Positions 4,001 to 31,192 of a DNA stretch of 39,356 nt are shown here, piece after piece. Positions within the stretch are counted from its first letter, which is position 1. Each line of letters opens with the position of its first letter. The translations under genes were made by a program, and so were the position numbers. The stretch is from the NCBI RefSeq assembly GCF_004010195.1, contig NC_057760.1:1277607-1316962 (forward strand), read 5' to 3'. The notes under the pieces were generated by a model that was given only the letters and a program-made list of their open reading frames with translations, ran no database searches and was not told where the DNA came from. This stretch comes from Chiloscyllium plagiosum. Taxonomy: Eukaryota.

Positions 4001-7000
4001 TGTGAGACGAATGAGCATCAGTCCCTCGGTCGTGCCACCCCCCCAAAGACAAAAGGTTGTAGCTGTAAGTCCATGCTCCAGATGATTCTATTTCGCAGGA
4101 GCAAATTACTGCAGATGCTGGAATCTGTATTTAAAAACAAAACGTGCTGGAGATCACAGCAGGTCAGGCAGCATCCATGGGGAAGAGAGCAAGCTAATGT
4201 TTCAAGTCTAGAAGACTCTTCATCAGAGCCATCTAGACTCAACATTAGTTTGCTTTCTCTCTGTGGATGCTGCCTGACCCGCTGTGTTCTCCAGGACGTT
4301 TTGTTTCCATTTCACTTTGGCAGAGGGCCAGTGCTGGGGGAGTGCAGCGTTGTTGGAGAGCTAGCGCTGAGGGAGCGGGCAGTATCAGAAGACCAGCGTT
4401 GAGGGATGGCCACAATGTCAGACGGTCAGCGATGAAGGTTTGCTGCACTGTCACAGGGGATGGTTTTCAGGGTTAATTTGAGTTTCCCAAGTGGCCCTCT
4501 TAGCTGAAAGTAAAAGTTTTCAAGAGCTGCACAGGAAGAAGACTTGGGAGTGTGGGAATATGTCTCCCCTGTGGTCCTGGCAAATTCTAATCCCACAGCT
4601 AATATAAACGAAGTCAAAAGTCACACAGTACCAGGTATAGTCCAACAGATTTATTTGAAATCACAAGCTGTTGGAGCACTGCTCTTTTCGTCGGGAAGAC
4701 TTCACCCTGACAAAGGAGCAGTGCTCCACAAGTTTGTGATTTCAAATAAACCTGTCAAACTATACCTGGTGCCGTGTGACTTTTGACCTTGCCCACCCCA
4801 GGCCCACACCAGCACCTCCACACCATGGCAGCCATTAAAACCAGATTGCTAGGTGTGGAACCTGCAATCAAATGGGAGGGAGTTCCAGGATTTCGACCCA
4901 GTGGCAGTGAGGGAGGGGCAATAAATTTCCAAGTTGGGATGGTGTGTGTGAGACCTTGAGCAGAAAGTACTGGAGACGGTGTTCCCCAGCATCTGCTGCG
5001 CTGGTCCTTCTGGCATTTCGAGGTTGCAGGATTGGTAGGCCCTGTGGAGGGAAGCTTGGTGCGTCTCCTGTGGATGGCACACAATGCTGACACTTAGTGG
5101 TTGTGGGTGTGAATGTTGAAGGTGGTGGGTGAGGTGCCAGTCAAACAGAGGTGTTGGCGAAGGATATTCATGGCACTGAATTTTGCCATGCAGCCCATCA
5201 AGTCCATGGGTAGAGCAGCCCAGTCGATCCCATTCTCCTACTCCTATCCCATTACCTCAGTTGGTTTTTATTTCCCTCAATAGTCCCTCCTTGGGAGTAA
5301 AGGTCGCAGGTTTGGAACATGCTGGCAGTGTTTAATCCTGAGAGGGTCGGGGTGTTGCGACCATCTTTCTCAAATCCGTCATCTGTTTCTCTCAATTACA
5401 GCCAAATGTAAGATCTGCGAGCTAGCCTTCGAAACAGAACAGCTTTTCCTGCAGCACATGAAAGACACCCACAAACCAGGAGAAATGCCCTACGTCTGTC
5501 AGGTAAAGTTCCATTCCTGTGAGTGGGGCACTAATCCAGTGTGTTTGTTTTAAAAAATGTCTTTGTAGAGTGTGGGTGTTGCTGGTTGGCATTTATTGTC
5601 CTTTCCTAATTTCCCTTTGAGAAGGTGCTGGTGAGCTGCCTACTTGAACTGCTGAAGCCTGTGTGTGGTGTCAGGGTACCCATAATGTCGTTTGGAGGGC
5701 TTGTGGAATTTTGACCCAGTAACATAGAAGGAATTGGCAAGGAGGTTGCCAGGGTTGGAGCGTTTGAGTGACAGGGAGAGACTGAATAGGCTGGGGCCGT
5801 TTTCCCTGGATAGTTGGAGGCTTATCAAACTCATGAGGGGCATGTATAGGGTAAATTGACAAGGTCTTTTCCCTTGGGGTGGGTGAGTCCAGAACTAGAG
5901 GGTTTAGGGTGAGAGCGGAAAAATTTAAAAGGGACCTAAGAGACAGAGGGTGGTGCGTGTATCCAAGAGTAAGTGGTGGAGACTGGCACAATTACAACAT
6001 TCAAAAAGTGTCTGGATGGGGACATGAATAGGGAGAGCGGAAAAATTTAAAAGGGACCTAAGAGACAGAGGGTGGTGCGTGTATCCAAGAGTAAGTGGTG
6101 GAGACTGGCACAAAGTGTCTGGATGGGGACATGAATAGGAAGGGTTTAGAGGGATGCGGGCCAAGTGCTGGCAAATGGGACTGGATTAGTTTAAGATATC
6201 TGGTTGGCGTGGACAAGTTGGACTGAAGGGTCTGTTTCTGTGCTGTACAGCTCTGGCTTCATGAATGGCTGATATATTTCCATGATTTGGAGGAGCCATT
6301 ATTTGTTGGACTGGGGTGGACAAAGTTAAAAATCACACTCCAGGTTATAGTCCAACAGGTTTATTTGAAAGCACTAGCTTTTAAAGCGCTGCTTCTTCAG
6401 GTAGTTGTGAAGCAGGAGACAGTGAGAGACAGTTTATCGCAAAAGATTACAGTGATACATTGAATAAACTTAGTTTGTTAAATCTTTCACCTTTTAGAAA
6501 GGGTTTGCCGGTTTCGGTTCTTTAATATGTAAATCCCAGGACTACTTTTCAGTCACATTCTCAAGATAACTGAAGGTTTTATAACGAAAGGTGACATCTT
6601 AGCTCAGACAGTGCCTAAAAGGTATGAGGTTAGAGTCTGTATCCAAATCTTGAGTCAGACTAGTTCTATTTCCAAAGTGGAACTTACAAAATATTACATG
6701 GATTGACTGCCTGACACAGATTGCCTGCTGGTTCTGCATTTTTTTGAGCAAAGTAGTGTATCTGCAAATATAATTCTGTAAATACAAATTCACCCCATAA
6801 ACCTATATGTGTGTGCTTGCAGGAGAGAGAGAGAGAGAGACCGACACTGTGAGTGTGTGCATGCGAGTGAGTACACAAGAGTGTGTGTTTGCGTGTGTGC
6901 AAGTGTGTTTGTGAATGTGATGGGGCAAAGACTGAGAGAGTGCATACATGGGTAAAAATGTGGGTGGGGGGAGAAAGTGTGTGTGTGTGGGTGAGGTGGC

Positions 7001-9152
7001 CTCAACTAGGACTTCGGGTCCATGAAGCAGGAAAATCGACGTTTCAGGCAAAAGCCCTTCATCACAAGGCTTTTGCCCGAAACGCCAATTTTCTTGCTCC
7101 TCGGATGCTGCCTGACCTACTGTGCTTTTCCAGCACCACTCTAATGTAGACTTTGGTTTCCAGCATCTGCAGTCCTTGTTTTTACCCCTTCGGGTTCATG
7201 TCCCACTACACTATACACTTACTCACGCACACGCAAGCATACACACTTAGGTACTCACGCTAACCCTCACATAGAAAAGCACTCTCTCATACGCACACGT
7301 ACAACCCCCAGACTCACAGGCTTATACCCTATTGCACTCTCTCATAGATTTTACTATGCTTGCACACGCACGCACTCACATGTTTTTCTCTCTCTCTCTC
7401 GCGCGCGCGCACACACACCCCTACCCCATGCCTTCAAGGTCATGTCTGAGCTGAGATGTCACCTTTTGTTTTAAAACCTTAAGTTATCTTGAGAATGTAA
7501 CTTAAAAGTAGTTCTGGGCTTTACATATTAAAGAACCAAAACCAGCAAACCCATTCTACATGATGAAAGACTTAACAAACTAGGTCTGTTCAATGTATCA
7601 TTGCATCACTGTAATCCTTTGCTATAAATTCTGTATCTTATGGTCCTGCTTCACAACCACCTGATGAAGAAGCAGTTCTTCCAAATATAATCAGGTGTTG
7701 TGTGATATATTTCCAAGTCAGGGTGTTGTGTGTGTGTATAAGATATGTATTCTGACCTTTGCCCAGTGATGGATTGTGATGCCATTAGCGTAAAACTGCC
7801 TCGCTTTTGTTTATCCGTGCCTCTTGTTCATAAAAGCAACTGTGTGAAATTGGAACGTAGGGTTTGTCTGGGCAGAGATGAGAACATACAAAAGCCTCTG
7901 GTGCTGGCTGCCACCTTGCATTGTCAGGACAGCATGTGTGAGGAATAACCTTTATTCCCGGGGGTGCCAATGGCTGCTGGATGCCAACAGGGAGGGGAGT
8001 CGGACATTTTCAATGGATAAGGAGAGTGAAATTTGCAGGAGAAAGGGGGTTGTGTTGTGGGTCGATTCCCACGGACAGGTCAGGTACTGAGACGGGTTTG
8101 GTTTTGTACCTGGCAGGTGTGTGAGTATCGCTCGTCGGTGTACTTGGAGGTGGATAACCATTTCCGAATGATACACGAGGACACTAAGAATCTGCTCTGC
8201 CCGTACTGTTTCAAAGTGCTGAAGAACAGTAGTGCCTACCAGCAACACTACATGAAGCACCAGGTGAGTGTCTGTTAGAAAGTGGGTGCCCCGTCACAGA
8301 GACGGGTTGTATCAGCAGCATCCATGCAGAATAGAATCCTCACCCTGGCTCGGTCCGTGCATGCCCCGTGCTGCTTCCTGGGTTCCTGGCCCTGATTCGT
8401 GGCCAACCAGACTGTGTGGCAGCTATGTTTTCGGAACAGTGTTCCTGCAGAGGTGTCTTCCGGAGCCAAGGGGCAAGGATGTTGAGTCCGGCTTACCCCA
8501 GTGTCCAGAACAGCCCAAGAGGGGCAGGTTTTTATCTGATTTTTTTTTTGTCTGTTTCTGAGATGTGGGTGTCACTGGCTAGTTTTGATTTGGAGGTGCC
8601 AGTGTTGGGCGGGGGTGGACAAAGTTAAAAATCATACAATGCCAGATTATAGTCCAACAGGTTTATTTGGAATTTCTAGCTTTCGGAGTGCTGCTCCTTC
8701 ATCAGGTAATGATGAAGCTAGCACTTCCAAATAAGCCAGTTGAACTGTAACCTACTGTGTGATTTTTAACACTGGCCAGTTTGACATTTATCACCTGTCC
8801 CTCGAGGTCCATAGAGGTGGTGGGTGAGCCCATGTGTCTGCTACCCAGAGTAGATGATTGGGTGATCATTTCCTGTCTCCTGTTGCTGCATTACTGGTCA
8901 GGTATACTCTTTCCAGCATTTGCTTCATCGTCTTGTCTTTGTTTCAGAAGAAGAGTGTCTACCCCTGTAACAAGTGCAGACTCCAGTTCATCAGTGCCAA
9001 GGAGAAAATGGAACACAAGGTTGAACACCATAAGACATTTAAGAAACCGAAGCAGCTGGAAGGACTGCAGCCTGGTACCAAGGTTGAGGCCACAGTTGTG
9101 ATCTTCCTTCCTACACACATCTCGCGCGCGCTCTCTCTCTCTCGCGCGCGCT

Positions 9153-9183
<31 letters not shown>

Positions 9184-12100
9184 GCGCGCTCTCTCCGCTC
9201 TCTCTCTCTCTCGCGCTCGCTCTCTCGCGCTCTCTCTCTCGCGCTCTCTCTCTCTCTCGCGCTCTCTCTCTCGCGCTCTCTCTCTCTCTCGCGCGCTCTC
9301 TCTCTCGCGCACTCTCTAGCTCTCGCTATCTCGCTCGCTCTCGCTATCTCACTTGCACTCTCGCTATCTCGCTCGCGCTATCTCGCTCGCTACCTCGCTC
9401 GCGCTCTCGCTCTCTCGCGCTCTCTCTCTCGCGCTCGCTCTTTCTCGCTCACGCTCTCGCTGTCTCGCTCTCGCTCTCTCGCGCGCGCTCTCTCACTCGC
9501 CCTCTCTCTCGCTATCTCGCTCTCGATATCTCACTCGCTATCTCCATCTCGCTCGCGCTCTCGCTATCTAGCTTTCGCTATCTAGCTTTCGCTATCTCGC
9601 TCGCGCTATCTCGCTCGCGCTATCTCGCTCGCGCTATCTCGCTCGCGCTATCTCGCTCGCGCTCTCTCGCGCGCGCTCTCTCGCGCGCGCTCTCTCCCTC
9701 CCGCGCGCTCTCTCCCTCCCGCGCGCTCTCTCCCTCCCGCGCGCGCTCTCTCGCTCACTCTCACTCTTTCTCGCTCGCTCACTCTCACTCTTTCTCGCTC
9801 GCTCACTCTCACTCTTTCTCGCTCGCTCACTCTCACTCTTTCTCGCTCGCTCACTCTCACTCTTTCTCGCTCGCTCACTCTCACTCTTTCTCGCTCGCTC
9901 ACTCTCACTCTTTCTCGCTCGCTCACTCTCACTCTTTCTCGCTCGCTCACTCTCACTCTTTCTCGCTCGCTCACTCTCACTCTTTCTCGCTCGCTCACTC
10001 TCACTCTTTCTCGCTCGCTCACTCTCACTCTTTCTCGCTCGCTCACTCTCACTCTTTCTCGCTCGCTCACTCTCACTCTTTCTCGCTCGCTCACTCTCAC
10101 TCTTTCTCGCTCGCTCACTCTCACTCTCGCTCGCTCTCTCTCACTCTTTCTCGCTCGCTCTCTCTCACTCTTTCTCGCTCGCTCTCTCTCACTCTTTCTC
10201 GCTCGCTCTCAAAGGTTGTCACGAGTGCTGACACAAACAGCATTCGGATTATCGGCCAGGATCCATTTGGGTCCAGGGTAGTTCTGAATAACTCCTCCCA
10301 ATAGGCAGGGCGGTATCATCAATGTGGCTGTGTCAACAGCACTGGCATGAGCTTGCCTCGTTTTGCTTGGGGAGACTCTGCTTGGTGTTCTTTGTCAACC
10401 CCTCTCTTCCCATCTCTCGCTTGCACGCATGCAGAGTCTCAGACTTGTGCTCTCTTTCTCTCGCACATTCTCTATCGTACTATGTCTCTCTCTCTCTCTC
10501 TCGCCACACTCTCTCATACTGTGTCTGTCTGTCTTGTGCTGTCTGTTGCTCCCTTTTGACCGCCACATATATACACCATCTATCCCCCCCACTTCATCCT
10601 GGGAAAGAAGTATGGGCGATCTACAGACCAGCAACTGAGCCATTGTGCCTGCGTGTGGTGCTGAGAGCAGAGAAGCAGGCTTACTGTGCATGCGTTGATT
10701 CTTCCCCAAGAGTTGTGCCATTAGTGCCCACTTGCCCCACCGTGCTGTTGCCCTCTCAGCCCTGCAGAGCTTTCCTTTCCGGCTATTCCGTTTGCCAGCT
10801 TTGGGGGACACACCTGCGCGTGCACAGGCAGTCAAGGAATGGATTGGGTCACCTTCGGATCTTTTTGTTTTGAATCTCAGGTCACAATAAGAACCTCGAT
10901 GGGACAGGCCCGCGCTGCTGGTGGGCCCGTGCAGGAGGTCCCCACCAGGAAGGTGTACCCCCCGGTGATGCCCCCGAAGCCACAGGAGCCCCCAGCTTGC
11001 TCGACTGTTCACACCATCCCTTCGGTCGCCAAGGCTGTGCCCAAGGCAGAGAAGAGGAAGGCAGTGGAGAGGATAAGTCCATTGCTCATAGACATGCAGG
11101 ACATCAGGTGGGTGCCATGTGAACGCACACATACACGCACGAGTCCTGTTGCGCTGGACGTGCGCTAGCCATAAGGTGCATGGGGTTCTTAGGGTTTTGT
11201 TTGTGGAGGGAGTTGGCTCTCGGCAGTGAGTAGTGGCCGCATTCCGATATACAGCCCTCGCTGTTTTCGAGGGGGTCGTCTGCAGCATTAAGGTGGCACG
11301 TGGGCCTCCTGCAGAATGCATCCCTTTCCCTTCCAGCCGCCGTCACTGGAAGGGGCAAGGCATGAGGTGAGCTTCCAGGAGTTTGGCTTGATGTTGCACG
11401 TGGTGGTGACCTCTATCTCTCGTCCCTCGAGGATGGAAGTTTGAGACCCCACTCGAAGACACGCGCTCCCCTTGCCCAACCCCAGTGGCAGGGGGTCGGA
11501 GGGCCAGCAACCCAGGCGACCGCTGCAGACGGCCGATTTAAACCGAGACTGCTCTGAAACCCCAACCACCAACGCAAGGGCCTCTCGGGTGGACGTCTGA
11601 GGTCCCACAGCTGTGACGTGGATGGACAGCCTCACGTGGTGCACGGGCAGATGAGTTCTTCCCATTGGCCACTGATCAGCATCACCTCTGGGGGGGGGGG
11701 GGGGGGGCGGTGGAGTTAAAACCACAGACATTATCGCATTGCTATTTTTGGGCTCTTGTTCTGCAGAAAGGTGGCATTTCCCCGTGTGACAACGGTGATT
11801 GAATGTTTGGGGTGGGAGAGGGGAATAGGGCTTATAAAAACATACTTCACGGGCTGTGAATCGTTTTTGGGACGCCCCAAGGCTGCGAGAGGCATTAGAG
11901 GATTGCTCCCCCCCTGCCGAGCTGTATTCGCCCTGTTGCTTTTTGAAATCCTTGGCGTTTTTTTTTAACCTGCTGCTATCCTGCGGGGGCTGAAATTCTG
12001 CTGTCTTCTCTTCAACCCTGACAGGAAGCTGTATGGTAACCAGGTCTGTCTGGAGTGCAACATAGACATCACTAACGTCAGCAACGTCAGCAACCACTTC

Positions 12101-13343: not shown

Positions 13344-13375
<32 letters not shown>

Positions 13376-16300: not shown

Positions 16301-19300
16301 ACCACCGCCCAATCACCCTCATGGGTCTTGTGCCCAAACTATTGGAGCATCAGGCTTTTCTGTTTGTGTCTTGCCCATCCATCTGTTCATTTGGGCAACC
16401 TCTGAGCTCTCTCCGCTTGCCTGGAAAAGAGGAAACATGGACCACGTTGTGGGGCTTTATAGTGTTGCCTTAGTCAGAAGGGTGTGCTGATGGGGCTTAC
16501 AGACAGGAAGGAACCAGCTGGGGGTTTGCCAGTGAGCTGTGTCAATCAAGCAGCAAGAAAAGGGATAAAGATGATGGCCGTTGCAACACTCTGCCACGTC
16601 TGTGAAGGTCGGCACAGTGGCTCAGGGGTTAGCACTACTGCCTCCCAACACCAGGGACCTGGGTTCAATTCCACTGTCAGTCTGGAGTTTGCACATTGTC
16701 CCCATGCCTGCACGTGTTTTTTCCCCACAGTCTAAAGATGTACAGGTTCGAGTGGATTGGCCATGCTAAATTGTCCCGTAGTGCCCAGGGATGTGCAGGT
16801 TCGAGTGGATTGTCCATGCTAAATTGTCCCGTAGTACCCAGGGATGTGCAGGTTAGGGTGGGTTGGCCATGTTACATTGTCCCATAATATCCAGGGATGT
16901 GCAGGTTAGGGTGGATTGGCCATGCTAAATTGTCCCGTAGTGCCCAGGGATGTGCAGGTTAGGGTGGATTGGCCATGCTAAATTGTCCCATAGAAGGGCT
17001 TATGCCCGAAACGTCGATTCTCCTGTTCCCTGGATGCTGCCTGACCTGCTGCGCTTTTCCAGCAACACATTTCCAGCTCTGATCTCCAGCATCTGCAGAC
17101 CTCACTTTCTCCCCATGCTTAATTGTCCCATAGTGCCCAGGGATGTGCAGGTTAGGGTGGGTTGGCCATGCTAAATTGTCCAATAGTACCCAGGGATGTG
17201 CAGGTTAGGGTGGATTGGCCATGGGAAATTGTCCCATAATGCCCAGGGATGTGCAGGTTAGGGTGGATTGGCCATGCTAAATTGTCCCATAGTGCCTAGG
17301 GATGTGCAGGTTAGGGTGGATTGGCCATGCTAAATTGTCCCATAGTGTCCAGGGATGTGCAGGTTAGGGTGGATTGGCCATGCTAAATTGTCCCATAGTG
17401 CCCAGGGATGTGCAGGTTAGGGTGGATTGGCCATGCTAAATTGTCCCATAGTGCCCAGGGATGTGCAGGTTAGGGTGGATTGGCCATGCTAAATTGTCCC
17501 ATAGTGCCCAGGGATGTGCAGGTTAGGGTGGATTGGCCATGCTAAATTGTCCCATAGAGCCTGGGGATGTTTAGGTTCGGATGGATTGGCCATGCTAAAT
17601 TATCCCATAGTGCCCAGGAATGTGTCGGTTAGGGTGGATTGGCCATGCTAAATTGTCCCATAGTGCCCAGGGATGTGCAGGTTAGGGTGGATTGGCCATG
17701 CTAAATTGTCCCATAGTGCCCAGGGATGTGCAGGTTAGGGTGGATTGGCCATGCTAAATTGTCCCATAGTGCCCAGGGATGTGCAGGTTAGGGTGGATTG
17801 GCCATGCTAAATTGTCCCATAGTGCCCAGGGATGTGCAGGTTAGGGTGGATTGGCCATGCTAAATTGTCCCATAGTGCCCAGGGATGTGCAGGTTAGGGT
17901 GGATTGGCCATGCTAAATTGTCCCATAGTGCCCAGGGATGTGCAGGTTAGGGTGGATTGGCCATGCTAAATTGTCCCATAGTGCCCAGGGATGTGCAGGT
18001 TAGGGTGGATTGGCCATGCTAAATTGTCCCATAGTGCCCAGGGATGTGCAGGTTAGGGTGGATTGGCCNNNNNNNNNNNNNNNNNNNNNNNNNNNNNNNN
18101 NNNNNCTCCTATTTATCTCTCAGCATCTCTCCCCACCACCACCACCCCCACCCCCACTCATTCCTGATGAAGGGCTTCTGCCTGATACATTGACTCCTGT
18201 TCCTCGGATGCTGCCTGACCTGCTGTGCTTTTCCAGCACCAGCCTTTTTGACTCTGATCCCCAGCATCTGCAGTCCTCACTTTCTCATAGAATGTTATGG
18301 CATTGTAATCTAGTGGGTAAGACTTGAACTTGGGCTTTGTGGCTCAGAGGTAGGAACACCACCATTGTGCAACAAGAACCCTCACCATAACCATGTCATC
18401 TACTTATACTTCAGGTGCTTGTCATTTCTGATGTCTGCATTGATCGGAAGTATGTTTTGTGTTTTGTGCGACCTTATCTGATTTCTGAATATATCTCTCC
18501 CCTCTGTAGATCCATCAGTCAGTGAGGTCAAGAACTCAGTTGTCAAGTAAGTATATGTTGCAGAGTTCACTAGTCTCCCATTGGCAGGCTGGAGGGATTT
18601 AGAGTTCCCATGGTTAATGTGACCTGCGAGGAGCTTTGTGGGGCTACTAGGATCCATCTGTGTGTCTCTGGGCTAGAAAAGAATTAGTGCAAAAGAGATT
18701 GCATTGACCCCACTGTGCTGCTTTCCTATCTATAGTTTCCCACTGTGCTAATTCATGGTTCAGCCCAGTGCTGTCCTGGGAATGATTGAGGGGACAGTTT
18801 AAGAGAGTAGAAACTGTTACTCTATATCTAACCCCGTGCGGTCACTGTCCTCTGTTTTGAAGTGGGCAGTGTTGAGAGAGCTTTACTTTGTGTTTAAAAA
18901 TGGAGAGAGATTTACCTTCTGTTTAAAAGAGTAGATGGTGTTTTCCTCTGTCCCTATCATATGCACCCAGGATAGCACCGAGTCTGATACAGAGTAAAGC
19001 TCATTCTACACTGTCCCCCACCAAACATTCCCAATACAGAGACAACATGGGGTTAGAGACAATGTCAAGGGAGCTTTACTTTTAGTTTAGAAAAGTAGAG
19101 GTGGCAATACTCTATATCTGTTCTCAGTCTGTGCCTATCATGGGAGTGCTTTATGGAGACCATAGGAAGGGAGTCTTTCTCCATATCTCACTCTGTTCTG
19201 TATCTATCCTGGGAGATTTGAATGGGGATAGTGCAGAGGAGGCTTTATTTGCAGTATATTTGAGTAGAGGGTGCTTTACACTGTATCTCACTCCACTCTG

Positions 19301-22031
19301 TACCTGTCCTGGAGTGTTTAATGGGGATAGTGTTGAGGAAGCTTTACTTTCAGTTTGAAAGAGTGGTGGGAGCGTTACTCTAATCCTATTCTGTCCCTGT
19401 CCTGGGAGTATTTGATAGGGTCAATGTAGTTATTGACTTGCTGTTCAAAAGGGATCTTTTGTGTTCACCTTTAAAGAGCAGTAGAAGCTTCACTCCATAT
19501 TCAGTCCTTTGTAGCTTTGATTCTTTGCACGGGTCTCCTCCTTCAGAAAGTTTGAGGGCTAAGTGCAAGGAAAATCTTCTCGTTGGTGTTTACATTATTG
19601 ACTGTGCCATTCTAAACTCAGCCCATCTGCCTGCACGTGGACCATCTCCCTCTATTCCCTACCTGTTCAGGTCTCTGTCCAAATGTCTGAGTGCAGCATG
19701 TTCCAGCATCTACAAGATAAGTTGCCTCACTTGTCTCGTTTAACCTTTTTCCCCCTCCTCTCACCTTAAACCTACGTCCCCTAGTGTTTAACATTTCCAG
19801 CCTGGGAAAAGGACATCCAATTATCCACCCTATCCATGCCTTTCATGGTCTAATCTACTTCTATTGGGTTGCCCAGCCTCCCCCACTCTATGTTGCCTTC
19901 TCCTCATAATCCTGCATGTTCCTTTTCAAATAACTGTCTAATTCCATTTTGAATGCCTGAGTTGAACCTGCCTCTCCCACTCTCTCAAACCATACACTCC
20001 AGATCTTAACTGCTCCTGGGTGAGAAGGGGATGGAAGGTAACATCGGTCTCTGTGTTTCCCAGCTGCAGACAGAACATTAGTCAGAGACTGTTTGAATTT
20101 GGGAGTATTCTGGATTCTCTGTTGCATCCCCTGGTCCGGAATGACTTAATCCATTCTGTTTGTGTATCTCCCCCGCCCCCGGTAGGTCTCAGCAAGTCAA
20201 GACCGTGCGGCTGAGCACTGTCTGCTCCAGCAACTACATCAACGCAAAGATCAGTACGCGGCCAGCCCTCACCAGCTCACCAACCCATCCCGCAGCTGCC
20301 AGCGACGGTAATGAATTAGGGGCAGGCGAAGGCGATGCAGCCCCTCCAGAGCCAGCGAGTCCAATCTCCGTGGAGGAAGAGAGGAGCAGTCCGCCTCCCG
20401 TATGCGTCGCCGAGGATCACAACGTCCTCAGTCCGGAGCGTGCTGTAGAGGAAGAGAGCCGTCCAGGTCCCATCAGCGACACGGAGGACAAGAACGCTGT
20501 GGGGAGCCCGGTGCCTGTCAAAGAAGACGACAACAACGTTTCCAATCCCGCGAGCGACGAAGAGAACAAGAGCGTTTCGAGCCCCCCGCCGTGTGCACCG
20601 CTCGAGAGCGAGGCTGCGTCAAGTCCAGAGCCCGTCGAAGAGGAGAGTGAGTTGTCTAAGGCGGGCACCGACGGCGAGAGCCAGCCGCAAGAGTCCCCCC
20701 CACGGAGGAAGTCCTTGTCCGAGCAGGAGGTCAAGGTGGTGCTGCACGCCCTGTGCTGCGGCATGCGGGCTGCCACGGAGCGGTACGGTGAGTCCCGGAG
20801 CCAGGTGGAGCAGTGGCTGAACCAGTGCGCGCAGCAGCTTGACCTGCTGAGTGTGGACAGCGAGGCTGGGGCCTCGACTCTGCTCTCCCTGGAGGCCGAG
20901 GAGCGGCTGGTCGAGTGGGTGCTGCTGCAGAGGGAGAGGCAGCTGCCCCTCACCGAGGAGACCTTCCTGCTCAGGCTCTCCGAACTGCTGGGGTCCCCCA
21001 GCCCCGACTCTGACTCCTCCTTCCGCTGCCTCTGGGGCGTGGGCTTCCTCCTGAGGCACAACCTCATCGCCTACGCCAAGATCACTGTGGCCCGCCAGCT
21101 GCCCCGGGAGATGGAGGGCGACGCCCGGAGCTTCCTGGATTTCGCCCAGCGCCTGATCGCCGGCCGCGAGTTCCCCCGCCGCATGATCGGCAACGTGGAC
21201 GAGATCCCGATCTTCCTGGAGCCCGAGGTGCTGAGCCGGCCCGAGGGCACCCCGGGGGCCCTGGGGGTGACCGGCAACGGGCAGCCACAGTTTGTGGTGG
21301 TCTTCACCCTCCTGGCGGACGGCGGCCTGCTGCCCACCATGGTGTTCTCCCGGGGGGGGCTGCCGCCCTGGCTGACGGTGCCCAGCAGCATCCTGCTGGA
21401 GGTGAAGGAGACGGGCCACGGCGAGTCGGAAGTGTTGGAGCTGTGGCTGAGCCGGGTGTGGAAGGGCCACGCGGCCCAGGCCCGGCGCGGCCGGAGCGCC
21501 CTGGTGCTGGACGCCGACCGTGGGCACCTCTCCGACGGTTTCATCGACCGGCTGAGCCGCTGCTGCTCCCTGCCGCTGGTCGTCCCCGCCGGCTGCACCT
21601 CCCGGCTCCAGCCCCTTGACATGTGCGTCAGCCAGGCCTTCCGGAACTTTCTGCAGAAGCGCTGGGCCGAGTACGCCCGCGAGGCGCGCTGCTACCGCGA
21701 CGTCTACGGCGACGTGCTCCAGTCCCTGCTCAACTGGGTGGCTGAGGTCGCTGAATTCGTTGCAGCCAACGGTGACCTGGTACGGCAGTCCTTCGCGGCC
21801 GCCGGCCTCCTGCCGGGCGTCACCTCTGCCCAGCACCGGGCGGCGGTGCAGGAGGAGCTGGTCAGCTTCTTGCAGGAGCAGCTGGAGCTGGGCGCCAGGC
21901 CGGATGACAGCATCAGCGGAGGCGACCAGGCTCCGGGCACCCTGCCCTCTGACCCCAGGCTGCTGACCAGGCTCTTTGAGGCAGAGAGCGACGCTGAGTC
22001 CTTCCATGGTTTCCCCGAGAACGATTTGTAA
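744..22031 (+). CDS. POGZ: POGZ (pogo transposable element-derived zinc finger protein), 3' part. Exons: 744-1093, 3739-3896, 5402-5502, 8117-8263, 8948-9082, 10881-11107, 12025-12174, 13467-13523, 14799-14920, 15696-15851, 18510-18546, 20186-22031. 5' exons lie upstream of the window.
   Basis: All introns are GT-AG with compatible phases; joined length 3486 nt = 1161 aa + stop. Peptides match vertebrate POGZ as I recall it: [93 protein letters not shown]. The terminal DDE domain distinguishes it from ZNF280 paralogues. Confidence 0.96.
1721..3600 (-). mobile_element. 5'-truncated CR1-clade (HER1-like) LINE with decayed reverse transcriptase
   Basis: Frameshifted ORF pieces with [44 protein letters not shown]; ends approximate. 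Confidence 0.92.
3739..3896 (+). CDS. POGZ: POGZ zinc-finger exon (FMNHMKHH...[22 protein letters not shown])
   Basis: ttgcag| ... |gtaagt; phase 2 to 1. Confidence 0.96.
4097..4307. mobile_element. Fold-back Penelope-like non-autonomous element with hammerhead core
   Basis: Inverted arms about 4136-4211 and 4232-4307; - strand reads GCT-CTGATGA-AGAGTC TTCTA GACTT-GAAA-CATT-AGC. Confidence 0.7.
4192..4229 (-). ncRNA. Minimal type-I hammerhead ribozyme motif (palindrome ACGU decayed to ACAU)
   Basis: CUGAUGA, 5-bp stem II, GAAA, 3-bp stem I GCU/AGC. Confidence 0.6.
4610..4830. mobile_element. Fold-back Penelope-like element (GGAGCAG family), degenerate hammerheads in both arms
   Basis: Inverted arms about 4611-4695 and 4707-4790; CTGACAAAGGAGCAGTGCTCCACAAG. 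Confidence 0.65.
5402..5502 (+). CDS. POGZ: POGZ zinc-finger exon ([33 protein letters not shown])
   Basis: ttacag| ... |gtaaag; phase 1 to 0; not in the ORF track, translated by hand. Confidence 0.96.
5739..6256 (+). mobile_element. CR1 LINE 3' fragment with internal tandem duplication
   Basis: CR1 3' sequence; 5911-5991 repeated exactly at 6033-6113. Confidence 0.8.
6283..7702. mobile_element. 1.4-kb fold-back Penelope-like insertion with 13-bp target-site duplication
   Basis: Direct repeat TGATATATTTCCA at 6270-6282 and 7703-7715; inverted arms about 6385-6610 and 7443-7675; CCAC-CTGATGAAGAAGCAG at about 7657-7675. Confidence 0.75.
7025..7187 (+). mobile_element. Nested Penelope-like short element (GGGC..GCCC family) with head-to-head hammerhead halves
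   Basis: Target-site duplication CTTCGGGT(C/T)CATG at 7012-7024 and 7188-7200; - strand TGATGAAGGGCTTTTGCCTGAAACGTCGA. Confidence 0.7.
8117..8263 (+). CDS. POGZ: POGZ zinc-finger exon ([49 protein letters not shown])
   Basis: tggcag| ... |gtgagt; phase 0 to 0. Confidence 0.96.
8586..8769 (-). mobile_element. Fold-back Penelope-like element with intact hammerhead core
   Basis: Target-site duplication CACTGGC(T/C)AGTTT at 8573-8585 and 8770-8782; partial inverted second arm. Confidence 0.72.
8671..8710 (-). ncRNA. Minimal type-I hammerhead ribozyme
   Basis: - strand AUUAC-CUGAUGA-A-GGAG CAGCA CUCC-GAA-AGCU-A/GAAAU: core nucleotides present, palindromic AGCU in place of helix III. Confidence 0.65.
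8948..9082 (+). CDS. POGZ: POGZ zinc-finger exon ([14 protein letters not shown]...EGLQPGTK)
   Basis: tttcag| ... |gttgag; phase 0 to 0. Confidence 0.95.
9121..10210. repeat. Compound CT/CG microsatellite with a 24-bp minisatellite (CTCACTCTCACTCTTTCTCGCTCG, about 15 copies, about 9752-10126)
   Basis: Visible periodicity; explains the (RVSERERV)n spurious ORF. Confidence 0.95.
10881..11107 (+). CDS. POGZ: POGZ linker exon (VTIRTSMGQ...LIDMQDIR)
   Basis: tctcag| ... |gtgggt; phase 0 to 2; starts with conserved VTIR. Confidence 0.92.
12025..12174 (+). CDS. POGZ: POGZ exon, HP1-binding zinc-finger-like (HPZ) region (CLECNID...[27 protein letters not shown])
   Basis: tgacag| ... |gtagga; phase 2 to 2; translated by hand. 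Confidence 0.95.
13467..13523 (+). CDS. POGZ: POGZ short exon ([18 protein letters not shown])
   Basis: ctgcag| ... |gtaatt; phase 2 to 2; PKYL motif matches POGZ. Confidence 0.9.
14305..14680 (-). mobile_element. Degenerate ancient SINE (DeuSINE/SacSINE1-like); similar pieces at about 4330-4600 and 11760-11910 (+)
   Basis: Resembles the Deu-domain SINE body from memory; heavily diverged. Confidence 0.45.
14799..14920 (+). CDS. POGZ: POGZ last zinc-finger exon ([31 protein letters not shown]...)
   Basis: cgacag| ... |gtgagc; phase 2 to 1; CTSCTF...MAxHLxxNPxH as in POGZ. Confidence 0.92.
15183..15486 (-). mobile_element. HE1-like tRNA-derived V-SINE
   Basis: Reverse complement of CAGTGGTTAGCACTGCTGCCTCACGGCGCCAGGG... 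head, V-domain, CR1-like tail. Confidence 0.8.
15696..15851 (+). CDS. POGZ: POGZ linker exon, symmetric phase 1-1, 156 nt ([16 protein letters not shown]...KDESL)
   Basis: Pyrimidine tract + tgacag|, strong |gtaagt donor, open frame; I recall no counterpart in human POGZ. Confidence 0.75.
16607..16736 (+). mobile_element. HE1-like SINE head leading into the 53-bp array
   Basis: GGCACAGTGGCTCAG A-box-like and GGTTCAATTCC B-box. Confidence 0.82.
16737..18068 (+). repeat. 53-bp minisatellite, about 22-23 units, running into an assembly gap
   Basis: Unit GATGTGCAGGTTAGGGTGGATTGGCCATGCTAAATTGTCCCATAGTGCCCAGG. Confidence 0.95.
16993..17112 (+). mobile_element. Short Penelope-like insertion inside the 53-bp array
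   Basis: Begins GAAGGGCTTATGCCCGAAACGTCGA (hammerhead 3' half); 20-bp duplication at 16973-16992 and 17113-17132. Confidence 0.72.
18069..18105. other. Assembly gap (37 N)
   Basis: N run. Confidence 1.
18106..18287 (+). mobile_element. Penelope-like short element with degenerate hammerhead (GAAA changed to GATA)
   Basis: CTGATGAAGGGCTTCTGCCTGATAC from 18164, followed by the family tail GGATGCTGCCTGACCTGCTG...CAGCATCTGCAG. Confidence 0.68.
18510..18546 (+). CDS. POGZ: POGZ 37-nt microexon ([13 protein letters not shown])
   Basis: ctctcccctctgtag| ... |gtaagt; converts phase 1 to phase 2, as needed to join the last exon at 20186. Confidence 0.8.
18760..19520. repeat. Degenerate tandem repeat (GGGACAGTG..AGAGGGAGCTTTACT..TATCT..CTGTCCTGGGAGTGTTT type) with one inverted copy
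   Basis: GAGCTTTACT and GGGGATAGTG motifs recur; inverted AGTAAAGCTC near 18993. Confidence 0.6.
20186..22031 (+). CDS. POGZ: POGZ terminal coding exon: acidic Ser/Pro linker, CENP-B-type HTH, pogo DDE_1 transposase domain, C-terminal FxGF motif
   Basis: ORF 20160-22031; acceptor ggtag| at 20185; motifs [25 protein letters not shown]/CpG-rich. Confidence 0.95.
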
Positions 22032-24601: not shown

Positions 24602-24637
<36 letters not shown>

Positions 24638-25094: not shown

Positions 25095-25275
25095 CGACAG
25101 AGAAACGCTGGAGAAACCCAGCAGGTCTGGCAGCGTCTGTGGAGAGAGATACAGGGTTAACGTTTCCGAGTCCCGTGTGGCACGAAGCATTCACTCTGTT
25201 TCTCTTTCCACAGATGCTGGGTTTCTTCTGCGTTCTCTGTGATGGTTATAGGTTCCCAGCATCCGCAGTACCTGC
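25095..25275. mobile_element. Fold-back Penelope-like element remnant; related copies at about 28056-28268 and 29915-29985
   Basis: Inverted arms (CAGCGTCTGTGGAGAGAGATACAG / CTGTTTCTCTTTCCACAGATGCTG); - strand GAAACGTT core remnant. Confidence 0.55.
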
Positions 25276-25688: not shown

Positions 25689-26256
25689 NNNNNNNNNNNN
25701 NNNNNNNNNNNNNNNNNNNNNNNNNNNNNNNNNNNNNNNNNNNNNNNNNNNNNNNNNNNNNNNNNNNNNNNNNNNNNNNNNNNNNNNNNNNNNNNNNNNN
25801 NNNNNNNNNNNNNNNNNNNNNNNNNNNNNNNNNNNNNNNNNNNNNNNNNNNNNNNNNNNNNNNNNNNNNNNNNNNNNNNNNNNNNNNNNNNNNNNNNNNN
25901 NNNNNNNNNNNNNNNNNNNNNNNNNNNNNNNNNNNNNNNNNNNNNNNNNNNNNNNNNNNNNNNNNNNNNNNNNNNNNNNNNNNNNNNNNNNNNNNNNNNN
26001 NNNNNNNNNNNNNNNNNNNNNNNNNNNNNNNNNNNNNNNNNNNNNNNNNNNNNNNNNNNNNNNNNNNNNNNNNNNNNNNNNNNNNNNNNNNNNNNNNNNN
26101 NNNNNNNNNNNNNNNNNNNNNNNNNNNNNNNNNNNNNNNNNNNNNNNNNNNNNNNNNNNNNNNNNNNNNNNNNNNNNNNNNNNNNNNNNNNNNNNNNNNN
26201 NNNNNNNNNNNNNNNNNNNNNNNNNNNNNNNNNNNNNNNNNNNNNNNNNNNNNNNN
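25689..26256. other. Assembly gap (568 N)
   Basis: N run flanked by poly-C and poly-G. Confidence 1.
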
Positions 26257-26726
26257 TCTGAGCACCGAATTTGGGGGGGGGGGCGCGGGGCAGTGTTGCG
26301 CAGGGAAACGCGCAAAAGTGGGTTGCAAGAGCTGTGCGAGATCTCGGCCAGCCTGGTGCTGTCTAAGGGGAGGTTTTCTTTATATATCTCTCTCTCTCTC
26401 TCGGCATCAGCCCCAGCGCAAAACAAAAATTTTTTTAACATGACAAGAGCACCCCTTCTTTTCGCCATTAAGGGGAGGGGGGGGATAAGTAAAACCTTTG
26501 CTTTTTTTTCTAAAATATAGTCACGGTTCGCCAAGTGGTGGCCATTGGGGGTTTCTTTTTTTTTCCCCTCTCATAGAGAGTTAAGCTGATGTACGATAAT
26601 TTGCATGGATTACTGTAACTTTTAAACTTTTTGTGTCACTGAACTTTTTGTTTATGTTTTGACCCCTTCACCCCAGTTGCTTTGTAAGTAATGGACAATG
26701 TACCTGTAATTGAGAAAGGACAAGGA

Positions 26727-26732
26727 AATAAA
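26727..26732 (+). promoter_or_regulatory. Candidate POGZ polyadenylation signal AATAAA (alternative at 23808-23813)
   Basis: AATAAA after about 300 nt of U-rich, UGUA-containing unique sequence; separated from the stop codon by an assembly gap. Confidence 0.5.
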
Positions 26733-26924
26733 AGTCTCTTTTTTTTAAAAAAAAAACACACATTTCTATAAACTATAACCGGACTGCTTGTGATGGTTTA
26801 TTTTACTGCTAGGAGTCGGTCTTTTAACAGGGTTGTCTTGAAAACTCGGGGGTGTAATTTTAAAGCAGAAGGCAGGAGGTTTTCAAGAGATGCATTTTCA
26901 CCCAGAGGAAGGGATCTGGAATGC

Positions 26925-27985
26925 ACCGACCTTTATAGAGGTTTACAAAATCATGAGGGGGGCATGGATAAGGTGAATAGGCAAAGTCTTTTCCCTTGGG
27001 TCAGGGAGTCCAGAACTAGAGGGGCATAGGTTTAGAGTGAGGGGGGCAACTTTTTCACACAGAGGGTGGTACATGTATGGAATGAGCTGCCAGAGGAAGT
27101 GGTGGAGGCTGGTACAATGACAACATTTAAGAGGCATTTGGATGGGGACATGAATAGGAAGGGTTTGGAGAGATATGGGCCGGGTGCTGGCAGGTGGGAC
27201 TAGATTGGGTTGGGATATCTGGTCGGCATGGACGGGTTGGACCGAATGGTCTGTTTCCATGCTGTCCGTCTCTATGACTCTAAACCCCTCGACCTTTTTA
27301 AGAAAAACTACTTGGGTGTGCCCTTGTACTCCAGGTGTGACCTCATTACTGTGTGAGGTTTTGGTCTCCTTACTTGAGAAAGGATGTACTGACATTGGAC
27401 GGGGTGCAGAGGAGGTTCACCAGGTTGATTCTGCAGTTGAGAGGGTTTGGCGTATGAGGAGAGACGGAGTAGACTGGGATTATACTCATTGGAATTTAGA
27501 AGATTGAGGGGGGTAAATTGTAGAGACATAAAAAGTGATAAAGGGAATAGGTAAGGGAGGTTGCTTCCACAGGAAGGTGAAACTAGAATGGAGGGGGGTG
27601 GGAGCAGATTTAGGACTGAGCTGAAGAGGAACTTCTTCACCCAGAGGGTTGTGAATCTGTGGAATTCCTCACCCAGTTGGGGCTACCTCATTGCATGCTT
27701 TTAAGGCGCAGTTTTGAACAGTAAAGGAACGAAGGTGAGCTCAAAGCTGTGGGCCTGGTGCAGGAAAGTGGGACCAGTGTAGCTGTTTGTATGTGTAGTT
27801 TTGACGGTACAGACTTGATAGGCCAAAGGGCCTCTTCTGTACTGATGAAGGGCTCTTGCCCGACACGTTGATTTTCCTGCTCCTCAGATGCTGCCTGAAC
27901 TGCTGTGCTTTTCCAGCACCTCTCTAATCTCCAGCATCTGCTGTACCCAACTCCACCTCTTCTGTACTGTATCATTCTGATGTGA
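26925..27985 (+). mobile_element. Two tandem CR1 LINE 3' fragments (about 26925-27281 and 27340-27985)
   Basis: ACACAGAGGGTGGT..TGGAATGAGCTGCCAGAGG and TTCTTCACCCAGAGGGTTGTGAATCTGTGGAATTC signatures. Confidence 0.85.
27845..27955 (+). mobile_element. Penelope-like short element inserted in a CR1 tail
   Basis: Perfect 14-bp duplication CCTCTTCTGTACTG at 27831-27844 and 27956-27969; CTGATGAAGGGCTCTTGCCCGACACGTT. Confidence 0.72.
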
Positions 27986-28889
27986 TGGGGGTTTTTTTTG
28001 CCTCTCTTCGTACCACTGTGGGTTAATGGAGAGAGGTGATGGCGATAGAATTCTGTTAGCATCTGAAAGAGGAAAAACAATCGCAGGAAACATTAGAGAA
28101 ACTCAACAGATCTGCTAGCACAAGCAAAGAGAGAAGCAGTTCACAGAATTGATAGGTGTTGGAAACTGTATATACGTCTGACAGAGATGAAAAAGTCAAC
28201 TGTTTTTCTCTCTCCCATTGATGCTGGCAGACCTGCTGAGTTTCTCCAGCGTCCTGAGAGTTTGTTCCAAAAGGCAAATGGTTCGGGAAGAGGGGGGGAA
28301 AAAAAAAGACGTAATGTGGGTGTCAAGTGAAGATGTGGAAGAAGCACCCCGTCTACTAAAACAAGGAAAGGGTGGGTTTGGAGTGAATGCAAGGATAACA
28401 GGTGCAACATGGTCAGTTTTTGGAATTCGGTGTCGGGGCCGTGGAGGGTGTAAAGTGCTAAAGCCGAACGGCAGCTGTTGTTTCTCAAGCTTGTGTTGTC
28501 CTTCATCCGTGGACCTGGGCGCAGAGATACCAGCACGAAAGCAAAGGTGCACGATTGAAATGGCAATGTTTGGATTCTTCGGGGTGGTCCTTTTTATTTG
28601 ACATTGTTTGTGTCTTGTGCCCCCTAAGCCCTGTTGAATTTATTCCTTGATCCGAGGCTTGGGATCTCCCTTGCCCTGAGCGACGAAGCGCCTGTCAGCA
28701 TTGATGTGTGAGTACGTGACCGGTACACGTGGAGTGAAACTTTGGCCATATGCAACAGAGGCCACTCCAGCCCTGCTCTGTCATTAAGAACCTGGTGACC
28801 TCTGTAGAAAGTCGAAAGCTTCTGCGTCAGACACGTGGATGACCCCCTTACTCTCCAATTGGAAGTTTCGTTTTCGTCACCTTCCAGGG

Positions 28890-29375
28890 GCGAGTAACGT
28901 TCGTACCACGCGTGTACCTGCCTCGTGACCATCTCCCATGAGAGAATTTTCACCATCGATCCTTGACATTTCAATGGCGTTACCATCGCCCTCTATCCGC
29001 CTCCCGCCTGGTACCGCAAGTAACTGTTCCCGTCCAAAGATATGACATCCTTTGACTTGATGCCCCGCATTCTCTCCCAATCCCTCCCCAAGGCTGCCGG
29101 GTGTAGAGCACAGTGGTTGCCGAGAGCTCAGACCGAAATGGGGAGGGACGCGATTCCTCAGCCCCTGCACATTCTCCTCTCGGCTACTGTCCTAACTTGG
29201 AAGTATCTTCAGTGTTAAAATCCTGCAGGCTCCTTTCCTAATGGCGCTGTGTATGTTGTCCCTACACCACATGGTGTGGGGGTGGGGACTACAGCTGTTC
29301 AACCTTCTCAAGGAGGGCAGTTAGGGATGGGTAATGAGCGCTGGTCCCAGCCAGCAACAGTCCAATAAATAAATG
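28890..29375 (+). mobile_element. Degenerate 3' portion of a second LINE family (CR1/L2-like); opposite-strand pieces at about 4850-5150 and 5570-5735
   Basis: Remnant coding VTF.P...TIS...LTFNG.T; 3' tail CCTTCTCAAGG..GGGCAGTTAGGGATGGG shared with the other copies. Confidence 0.5.
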
Positions 29376-30287
29376 TTAAAACAACGCTCGCAAATGTCCT
29401 GATTGCCTCAATACTGTACAAGAGGTCTTTTGGCCCATCAAGTCTACGTGCTGGTTATTGTGTCAAGAGAAATCGCCTAATGTCCTTGTAAGATATTTTC
29501 GAACCATCTGTTCAGATATGTTGCTATACACCTCTGGAGCAGGTGGGACTTGAATCTGTGTTACCCTGTCCCAGAGGCAATGCCAGATGCTTTCTCCACT
29601 CAAGTGACGGTGGTTGTATTGCAGGGCTAGTAACCGCAGTGGACGTGAGTTCAAGCGCCGGTCCCTGCAAATCGAAAAGTAATCTGGAAATCAGTTAAAA
29701 TCAATTCGGCGCCTACGGTGATCAAGGGACCTGGATTAATGATCCCTGTGGCAACTGCAGGATTGCAATTTGATTCGGTTAATTAAATCTCGAAAGAAAA
29801 GTGAAGTAGCGTTGGTGATGGTGGCAACGCGGTTGCTGGGTTGCGGTTTGAATCCCTTGATTGGCTTCATGAATTGGAACTGTCACTTGACTCCAGCTCT
29901 CCAATTCTTGAAGTGTGACCTCTTCTGACTCTCTCCATGAACACAGCTAAGACTTCCTGAGTTTATCCAGCAGTTCTCTGCGTTTAAGCAAGAATCTGGG
30001 GTACAATTATTGATTTCTGCTCACCAGGAGCTGGGGCAACAATTTTACCTAAGTCCTCCCCAAAGCCCCCTCTGGGGACTCCCTTTATGAGAATAATTGA
30101 ATTCCATCTACAGGAATGCACCTACAACTGGCTATAATTGCTGATGAGCCTTAGTGAAGACGTTGGTTGGATGTTTAGGAAGAGGGGGAAAAAAAAAGCC
30201 TGGAACCCCATGCTTGCAGAAACGATAGAACATCAAAGGAACGCAGAAACAGGAGTAGGCCATTCAGCCTCTTGACCCTGTTCTAGA

Positions 30288-31192
30288 GTCGCAGAGCTGT
30301 ACAGCACAGAAACAGACACTTCAGTCCAACTCGAGTGCGCTGACCAGATATCCAAAATTAATCTAGTCCAATTTGCCAGCATTTGGCCCATATCCCTCTT
30401 TAAACCCTTCCTATTCATAGTTAAAAATCGCACAACACCAGGTTTATTTGGAGGCACTAGCTTTAGAAGTGCTGCTACTTCATGAAGAAACCTTTTGGAC
30501 TATAACCTGGTGTTGTGCGATTTTTAACTTTGTCCACCCCAGTCCAACACCAGCACCTCCAAAAATCACTTCCCATTCAGGTACCCGTCCTGCTGCCTTT
30601 TAAATGTTGTCATTGTCCCAAGCTCCACCACCACCGCTGGCAGCTCATTCCGTACATGTACCCTCTGTGTGCAAAAGTCACTTAAATCCTGCCCCCTCAC
30701 CTTAAACCTATGCCCTCTAGTGTTGGACACCCCTACTCTTTGGAAAAACACCTTGTCTATTTACCCTATCCATGCCCCTCGTGATTTTCTAAGGTCACCC
30801 CTCAGTCTCCGACCGACCAGGGAAAACAGCCCCAGCCTGTTCAGCCTCTCCCTATAGCTCAAACCCTCCAGTATCGTTGTAAATCTTTTCTGAGCCCTTC
30901 CAAGTTCCACAACATCTTTCCTATAGCAGGGAGACCAGAATTCAACACAGTATTCCAAAACTGACCTCACCTATATCCCGTAAAGCTGCAGCAGGACCTC
31001 CTAACTCCGGTAGTCTGTGCACCCACCAAAAACATGCAAGTATCCTGTCTACCTGCGACTCCAATTTCAAGGAACCTGCACTCCAAGGTCTCTTTGTTCA
31101 GCAACACTCCCAAGGACCTTACCATTATGTGTGCAAGTCCTGCCCAGACTTGCCTTTCCAAAATGCAGCACCTCACGTTTATCTAAAATTAC
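30288..31192 (-). mobile_element. CR1 LINE 3' fragment interrupted by a fold-back insertion
   Basis: ORF pieces [35 protein letters not shown]. Confidence 0.88.
30419..30568. mobile_element. Fold-back Penelope-like element (GGAGCAG family)
   Basis: Arms GTTAAAAATCGCACAACACCAGG / CCTGGTGTTGTGCGATTTTTAAC; duplication CTTCC(T/C)ATTCA at 30407-30417 and 30569-30579. Confidence 0.7.

What the first reader, a model, noticed from the sequence alone, without database searches (positions are those of the whole stretch)
4097..30568. Population of short retro-insertions carrying minimal hammerhead ribozymes (at least three families)
Seen: about ten short insertions share CTGATGA-A-[hairpin]-GAA-[palindromic 4-mer]-H or decayed versions. 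Family A (GGGC-loop-GCCC, ACGT): 7025-7187, 16993-17112, 18106-18287, 27845-27955. Family B (GGAG-CAGCA-CTCC, AGCT): 4610-4830, 6283-7702, 8586-8769, 30419-30568. Family C (GAGTC-loop-GACTY, ACGT-derived): 4097-4307, 25095-25275. Stem II differs between families but still pairs, while the core is constant. Six copies have 11-20 bp target-site duplications. Known: Penelope-like elements carry minimal type-I hammerheads lacking helix III that are thought to cleave as dimers, and often insert with inverted terminal repeats. Inference: these are non-coding, ribozyme-bearing non-autonomous retroelements of sharks that look like MITEs but move by reverse transcription. The class is known; whether these families are described I cannot tell.
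Basis: partly seen in the sequence, partly recalled or inferred. Interest (0 to 1): 0.8.

Follow-up and report, generated by a model that had tools for sequence, protein, structure and literature searches.

The report
Stub ends of Penelope-like retrotransposons
These short, often hairpin-shaped insertions are the cut-off tail ends of protein-coding Penelope-like jumping genes, each with that element's small, predicted hammerhead ribozyme motif; the kind is known, but most copies start at one spot just ahead of the motif, which is likely where the copied RNA begins.

Summary
The observation largely holds: ten insertions, six with target-site duplications, hammerhead cores with covarying stems. 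Only one window copy (8681-8705) keeps an intact motif, and 25095-25275 belongs to a fourth family. Families A, B and C run straight into RT plus GIY-YIG open reading frames elsewhere in this genome, and copy 6283-7702 still carries the last codons of one. They are 5'-truncated, often 5'-inverted ends of autonomous Neptune-type Penelope-like elements, with the published one-sided ~30-nt tail and variable 10-17-nt duplications. They are not MITEs, tandem retrozymes or a separate short lineage: junctions differ from copy to copy, and short copies share subfamily variants with long ones. A 0.95-Mb sample gives 233 insertions (roughly 0.8 million per genome, extrapolated). One point is unexplained: 92 of 159 family-A arms start within 22 nt around the start of the hammerhead, peaking 4 nt before the core, not at the cut site. 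A transcription start there is my preferred but unproven cause. The scan reported this same pattern before in other pieces of this genome.

The parts
4097..4307 (-). Family C insertion: full arm with tail on - (4231 to 4097), tail-less inverted arm on + (4225-4307); core at 4226-4200, palindrome decayed
   Evidence: only a possible decayed duplication (8 of 9 nt)
4610..4830 (+). Family B inverted insertion, tail arm on +, tail-less arm on -, both cores decayed, no duplication found
6283..7702 (-). Long family B inverted insertion: - arm with tail and about 600 nt of 3' UTR; + arm starts near 6998 with the last codons of the element ORF; 15-nt duplication
6998..7209 (+). C-terminal codons of the family B ORF (GLN*DFG / FGFMSHY against GLNRDLGFMSHYR*), split by the family A copy
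7025..7187 (+). Family A inverted insertion nested in the B copy; arms joined in stem II; 13-nt duplication
8586..8769 (-). Family B inverted insertion; the only intact minimal hammerhead of the window at 8705-8677 (-); 13-nt duplication
16993..17112 (+). Family A direct copy starting inside the core (+4), with tail, in a 53-bp tandem array; 20-nt duplication
18106..18287 (+). Family A direct copy with 3' UTR running into an assembly gap; core at 18164, GAAA decayed
25095..25275 (+). Family D (not C) inverted insertion; both arms start downstream of the core
27845..27955 (+). Family A direct copy; the first letters of the core come from the target; exact 14-nt duplication
28188..28269 (+).
30419..30568 (+). 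Family B inverted insertion, decayed; 11-nt duplication

Best explanation
The insertions are the 3' ends (pseudo-LTR with minimal hammerhead motif and tail) of several families of autonomous, likely Neptune-type Penelope-like retroelements, left as 5'-truncated and often 5'-inverted copies, likely by target-primed reverse transcription. Shown: link to RT plus GIY-YIG frames, fixed 3' ends at two sites about 30 nt apart, variable 5' ends, 10-17-nt duplications, decay after insertion. Inferred: the endonuclease cuts both target strands about 10-17 nt apart; each end primes cDNA, one at the tail end (about +124 from the core) and one at the inner site (about +92); both cDNAs run to the same RNA 5' end and are joined by microhomology, often in stem II or stem I, giving the head-to-head hairpin. 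Inferred, about even odds: the pile-up of 5' ends 4 nt before the core marks a transcription start in the pseudo-LTR, so the ~128-nt copies are complete cDNAs of the 5' module of the RNA. The hammerhead is predicted to cleave as a dimer or with protein help; cleavage was not tested and is not needed for these insertions.
For: ORF link: family A core 150 nt behind an 882-codon frame with RVT_1 (E 6e-8) and GIY-YIG (E 4e-4, just under the curated cut-off); family B behind a 598-codon frame 30% identical to it over 609 aa, E 3e-70; family C 256 nt behind GIY-YIG pieces; ORF end inside the window. CX4CxxC linker in A and B frames, the Neptune/Nematis mark named in PMC8557442. 3' ends bimodal; 52 of 72 inverted pairs have one tail arm and one tail-less arm; 6 of the 21 'direct' copies with a duplication carry a clear short inverted piece, each from the other end (read by eye). 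Duplications in 31 of 71 inverted and 21 of 133 direct copies against 0.1% in shuffled flank pairs. Arm lengths coupled: 7 both long, 3 mixed, 56 both short, Fisher p 4e-7. 5' ends: A 92 of 159 in -10..+11 against 22 in the two flanking 22-nt windows, 44 at -6..-2; also 54 of 79 in paired arms; only 2 of 39 short single copies share upstream sequence. Contigs of other runs: 8 of 8 internal joints listed end at -4 or -3. Covariation of stems I, II and the palindrome across five families, and a U3-A8 core in family E. Same architecture in PMC3846280 and PMC8557442; both strands cut and extended and two start sites in PMC11167929.
Against: No full-length copy with a 5' pseudo-LTR was found among 30 loci holding the N-terminal region, and none of 74 A or 21 B tails shares downstream sequence, so the master structure is not seen. 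Only 17 of 305 sampled arms still reach an ORF. Short and long A copies are slightly non-random on a tree: 22 changes against 26.5 +/- 1.9 shuffled, p 0.02. 2,099 RNA reads show no start pile-up, though 94% run on into unlike sequence and so come from copies inside other transcripts. An extra G at -5 (cap copy) is not clearly enriched: G 15, A 9, C 28, T 6 of 58. The 5' peak is weak in single B copies (7 of 30, p 0.26) and B has no clean initiator match. Family D was not tied to an ORF. PMC11167929 saw no strand preference for the two start sites, so the one-site-per-strand rule is my inference.
Confidence: 0.88

Rival explanations
1. Solo ends are transcribed from their own start at -4, read through the tail and are copied again in trans, so a large share of the short copies descend from short copies: a SINE-like non-autonomous pool without fixed families.
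For: Sharp 5' peak at -4; the letters around it fit the initiator consensus YYANWYY (recalled) in A and D; such an RNA would hold both RT start sites; pseudo-LTRs suffice in trans in a rotifer (PMC3846280); weak clustering of short A copies, p 0.02.
Against: Nearest-neighbour identity short-to-short 0.909, short-to-long 0.911 (A), 0.893 and 0.887 (B); no diagnostic column at p<0.01; the four commonest stem II variants with long copies all have short copies too. A start at -4 is equally explained by the 5' end of the full-length mRNA.
Confidence: 0.2
2. The 5' pile-up is not an RNA end: RT stalls, or the cDNA folds back and self-primes, at the 5' strand of hammerhead stem I, which spans exactly -4 to -1.
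For: Stem I boundary coincides with the peak; junctions recur in stem II and stem I microhomologies; self-priming at palindromic junctions is proposed in PMC3846280; coupled arm lengths fit a fold-back.
Against: Single copies peak there too (38 of 80); stem I is only 3-4 bp; in several pairs the tail-less arm reaches further 5' than the tail arm, which a fold-back copy of a tail-primed cDNA cannot give.
Confidence: 0.3
3. Separate non-autonomous families amplified as fixed units: MITE-like fold-backs or circular-RNA retrozymes.
For: Small size, terminal inverted repeats in 72 of 233 sampled insertions, high copy number, hammerhead motif.
Against: 62 of 66 junction pairs differ; duplication length varies 10-17 nt; arms are asymmetric by the tail; 3 near-tandem cases among 305 arms, none a repeat of whole monomers; ends do not map to the cut site; direct continuity with ORFs.
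Confidence: 0.05

Closest known systems
Insertion units of endonuclease-positive Penelope-like elements, Neptune clade (PMC3846280; PMC8557442)
   Same: RT plus Cys-linker plus C-terminal GIY-YIG frame, pseudo-LTR, heavy 5' truncation, adjacent inverted copy, 30-40-nt tail on one end, short variable duplication.
   Different: Very high share of copies cut to about 128 nt with a sharp 5' peak; about 245 insertions per Mb; no tandem full-length unit seen in what I held.
Minimal hammerheads of metazoan PLE pseudo-LTRs (Cervera and De la Pena 2014, PMC4209133)
   Same: Type I, no helix III, palindromic 15.2-16.2, extra base after A9, G-C closing stem II, short stem I, several families per genome, mostly solo motifs ascribed to truncated PLEs, pairs on opposite strands, U3-A8 variant.
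   Different: Cartilaginous fish are not among the hosts named in the two parts I read (supplement not seen); stem II is 4-5 bp here.
Poseidon element of Anolis (PAc), in vitro (PMC11167929)
   Same: Two adjacent RT start sites that bound the tail, about 110-125 nt behind the hammerhead; both target strands extended; uncleaved RNA is the main template.
   Different: Other clade; here the genome suggests one start site per target strand within one insertion, which that paper did not report.
Animal non-LTR retrozymes (PMC7229834; bioRxiv 10.64898/2026.07.22.740005)
   Same: Non-coding, type I hammerhead, related to PLE pseudo-LTRs.
   Different: Those are head-to-tail repeats, in PMC7229834 with canonical ribozymes and circular RNA; these are dispersed single or head-to-head copies with minimal motifs.

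Membership tests
EN+ Penelope-like element (end of) | Single ORF with RT and C-terminal GIY-YIG endonuclease upstream of the repeat | tested here: met
   A; B; C: EN and partial RT pieces. Not shown for D.
EN+ Penelope-like element (end of) | Inverted 5'-truncated copy next to the direct one | tested here: met
   72 of 233 sampled insertions; long examples L224, L236
EN+ Penelope-like element (end of) | 30-40-nt tail at one end only | tested here: met
   bimodal 3' ends; 52 of 72 pairs
EN+ Penelope-like element (end of) | Short variable target-site duplication | tested here: met
   10-17 nt, 52 of 204 against 0.1% control
EN+ Penelope-like element (end of) | Partial tandem with upstream pseudo-LTR in full-length copies | tested here: inconclusive
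   not found in 30 N-terminal loci or behind 95 tails; assembly is gappy
Neptune clade | CX2-5CxxC linker between RT and EN | tested here: met
   motif as defined in PMC8557442; shared with Nematis
Neptune clade | RT phylogeny with reference elements | not testable with these tools
   no Repbase or Dfam references on hand
Minimal type I hammerhead | Core CUGANGA...GAAA, NUH, stem II, short stem I, palindromic 15.1-16.1 | tested here: met
   intact in 50 of 120 A and 15 of 45 B arms spanning the core, 0 of 16 D; covariation across families; 1 of 10 window copies
Minimal type I hammerhead | Self-cleavage as dimer or with protein | not testable with these tools
   no excess of 5' ends at the cut site that survives inspection
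MITE (DNA transposon derivative) | Fixed internal structure, symmetric terminal repeats, fixed duplication length | tested here: not met
Non-LTR retrozyme | Head-to-tail monomers each with a complete hammerhead | tested here: not met
Distinct non-autonomous (SINE-like) family | Own lineage with diagnostic changes absent from autonomous copies | tested here: not met
   a weak signal (p 0.02) remains for A, and small short-only lineages are not excluded

The most novel reading that the evidence does not exclude
The pseudo-LTR starts transcription 4 nt before the hammerhead core, and a dimeric Penelope-like protein primes both target strands on the same RNA, one at each internal start site. The hundreds of thousands of ~128-nt copies are then a Penelope-type 'strong-stop' product, and any such stub can be transcribed and copied again, a self-renewing ribozyme-bearing SINE-like pool that needs no separate master.
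Probability: 0.3. Interest if true: 0.6.

Novelty: new member of a known kind. Interest (0 to 1): 0.3.

Why it matters
As it stands: new, very abundant families of a known class, covering at least 4.5% of the sampled DNA, and a warning that such stubs mimic MITEs and microRNA hairpins. The Penelope transposition cycle is still unresolved. The junction statistics here (one start site per strand, coupled arm lengths, 5' ends before the ribozyme and not at its cut site) give testable predictions for the one existing in vitro system.

Tried and rejected
Rfam scan: no hammerhead family matched. Peak of 5' ends at the predicted cut site (+28): 8 of 159 A arms at +26..+30, but on reading they reduce to microhomology joints, one internal deletion and one locally duplicated locus; rejected as evidence of cleavage. 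Cap-derived G: inconclusive. RNA: no listed holder was on record as RNA; one raw single-cell run gave no start pile-up and one gave 0 reads; not used as evidence on expression. Folding of seven copies: z from -1.6 to +0.2, not significant; co-folding two monomers did not return the hammerhead dimer, which energy models do not capture well. Test that both arms come from one RNA: arms closer than random for A (median quantile 0.07, n 36), weakly for B (0.23, n 21), not decisive. L250 looked like a full-length unit but is a separate short insertion. PDB sequence search: 0 hits. One alignment of HHRs had mis-set coordinates in four rows and was not used. Family D 5' ends were not interpreted (two references only). 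The sample stayed at 100 stretches of 10 kb; a larger one would sharpen the family B, C and D counts. Literature: nine searches ran; none listed a paper describing these families in sharks; Repbase, Dfam, subscription journals and supplements were not seen.
Full report
Positions marked + or - count from C3, the first base of the hammerhead core. 'Arm' means one oriented piece of an element end.

Observation. The ten intervals are real repeats that fall into families by mutual similarity and by profile search. Six have flanking duplications of 11-20 nt. The exact core pattern is barely above chance in the window (7 against 2.96) because most copies are decayed: only 8705-8677 (-) has all parts intact. 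25095-25275 is a fourth family (D), and a fifth (E) exists elsewhere in the genome. The copies lie in introns of, and beyond, a zinc-finger gene whose long last frame has a DDE_1 domain (POGZ-like, name recalled). Rfam has no match to the motif; its best hits are microRNA models below threshold, caused by the hairpins.

What they belong to. The window lies in a 3.56-Gb genome. Copies of the 6420-6960 stretch have GIY-YIG coding sequence upstream. A protein search with a family A-linked frame gave 121 scored matches from 171,194 candidates; in L162 an 882-codon frame with RVT_1 and GIY-YIG ends 150 nt before the family A core. L222 has a 598-codon frame about 300 nt before the family B core; it has no Pfam hit of its own but is 30% identical to the A frame over 609 aa. 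Family C follows GIY-YIG pieces in L075, L188, L189, L193, L194 and L197. In the window itself the + arm of 6283-7702 begins with the last codons of the B frame, split by the nested A copy. A and B frames carry a CX4CxxC linker, the Neptune/Nematis mark. N-terminal pieces of one A subfamily are 92-100% identical across 40 scored matches, so it is young. No full-length unit was found.

Census. I took 100 stretches of 10 kb at evenly chosen places on large contigs (952,588 non-N bases). Profiles found 306 arms: A 175, B 79, D 47, C 5, E 0; reversed sequence gave 0 on the first 60 stretches. 305 arms could be mapped; they form 72 inverted pairs and 161 single arms, 233 insertions, one of them a local duplicate. 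That is about 245 per Mb, or roughly 0.8 million per genome by extrapolation, and 4.5% of sampled bases. 3' ends fall at two sites, about +92 and +124 in A and +90 and +120 in B. 52 of 72 pairs have one arm of each kind. Duplications of 10-17 nt were found in 31 of 71 inverted and 21 of 133 single copies with usable flanks, against 0.1% of shuffled flank pairs; the score threshold sets the lower length. Six of those 21 'single' copies carry a clear short inverted piece from the other end (by eye). This is the structure described for rotifer Penelope elements: inverted pseudo-LTR, 31-bp tail, 8-10-bp duplication (PMC3846280, passages), and as general for the class (PMC8557442, passages).

Separate short families? 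62 of 66 A and B pairs have different junction coordinates. Short copies are as close to long copies as to other short ones, with no diagnostic column, and are not clearly more diverged (0.91 against 0.93, p 0.28). The common stem II variants occur in both classes. Against this, short and long A copies are slightly clustered on a tree (22 changes against 26.5 shuffled, p 0.02; B 8 against 9.8, p 0.16), far from the one or few changes of a separate lineage. Three near-tandem cases among 305 arms are not monomer repeats. So MITE and retrozyme membership fail.

The ribozyme. Across families stem II differs but pairs (4-5 bp), stem I differs but pairs (3-4 bp), and the four bases that would form helix III in a dimer are self-complementary in two versions. 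Family E has U3 with A8 in every copy whose core was visible, the compensated core reported by Cervera and De la Pena (PMC4209133, parts 1-2 of 4 read), who also found most minimal motifs as single copies ascribed to truncated elements, and pairs on opposite strands. This is good evidence for a selected fold in the masters. The copies decay: 50 of 120 A, 15 of 45 B and 0 of 16 D arms spanning the core are intact. Cleavage was not tested.

The 5' pile-up. After dropping arms that abut gaps or stretch ends, 92 of 159 A arms start between -10 and +11, against 22 in the two flanking 22-nt windows (p 4e-25); 44 start at -6..-2. It holds in paired arms, whose boundary is set by the other arm (54 of 79), and is not due to a missing reference, since only 2 of 39 short single copies share upstream sequence. 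B shows it more weakly (34 of 78; single copies 7 of 30, not significant). Contigs of four other runs from one study list 8 internal joints, 6 at -4 and 2 at -3, some probably the same locus. The cut site (+28) is not convincingly favoured. In A and D the bases around -4 fit the initiator consensus (recalled), and Penelope of Drosophila virilis starts in its pseudo-LTR; -4 is also the 5' edge of stem I, so a stall is a live rival. RNA reads did not decide it.

Mechanism. In vitro, the Anolis element cuts and extends both target strands, starts RT at two internal sites that bound the tail, and uses uncleaved RNA (PMC11167929, parts 1-2 of 4 read). The genomic pattern here fits two priming events per insertion, one at each site, on opposite strands. 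Arm lengths are coupled (7 both long, 3 mixed, 56 both short; four long pairs differ by only 6-11 nt), which suggests that both cDNAs stop at the same RNA end. A simple fold-back of a tail-primed cDNA cannot give pairs in which the tail-less arm is the longer. These steps are inference.

Prior knowledge. Also seen: bioRxiv 10.64898/2026.07.22.740005 (parts 1-3 of 5; one cartilaginous fish, tandem retrozymes only; supplements closed and may bear on whether these families are listed), PMC7229834 (passages), PMC6155905 (passages), PMC8455134 (one passage: Penelope present in whale shark). A 2017 paper on dimer cleavage of PLE hammerheads is recalled only. Nine searches found no description of these families; Repbase and Dfam were not available. 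The scan's own notes report the same pattern in five other pieces of this genome; my reading was set before that look-up and those notes are not independent support.

Verdict. Real, abundant, new members of a known kind. Interest 0.3, mostly for the 5' pile-up and the one-site-per-strand pattern.

Noticed in passing
window 642-22028 (+): Multi-exon C2H2 zinc-finger gene with a long last frame (20145-22028) holding DDE_1; POGZ-like (name recalled). Host of most of the insertions.
   Followed up: partly
window 16626-18080, 31214-32220, 37157-37330: Long 53-bp tandem arrays of one unit, 93-99% alike, in three places and both orientations; the unit resembles part of a shark V-SINE (recalled, not tested).
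   Followed up: no
L234:5611-5760, L236:5643-5790: Fifth family (E) of the same elements, with a U3-A8 hammerhead core, an ORF about 45-55% identical to family A in aligned pieces, and a long inverted 5' arm in L236.
   Followed up: partly
window 18200-18280 and matching parts of families A, C, D, E: Behind the hammerhead a conserved 7-9-bp long-range stem closes about 15-20 nt before the tail end; family B has an unrelated stem in the same place. Possibly the RT binding or start structure; folding z-scores not significant.
   Followed up: partly
L148:3940-4131 (+): RT fragment of another Penelope-like lineage (YVDD motif), perhaps Poseidon-type.
   Followed up: no
L145 (- strand A copy): Internal deletion joining the end of the ORF to exactly the predicted cut site (+28); single case.
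   Followed up: partly
window 9100-10300 and 38040-38410: Long degenerate (CT/CG)-rich and (CA/CG)-rich simple-repeat tracts.
   Followed up: no
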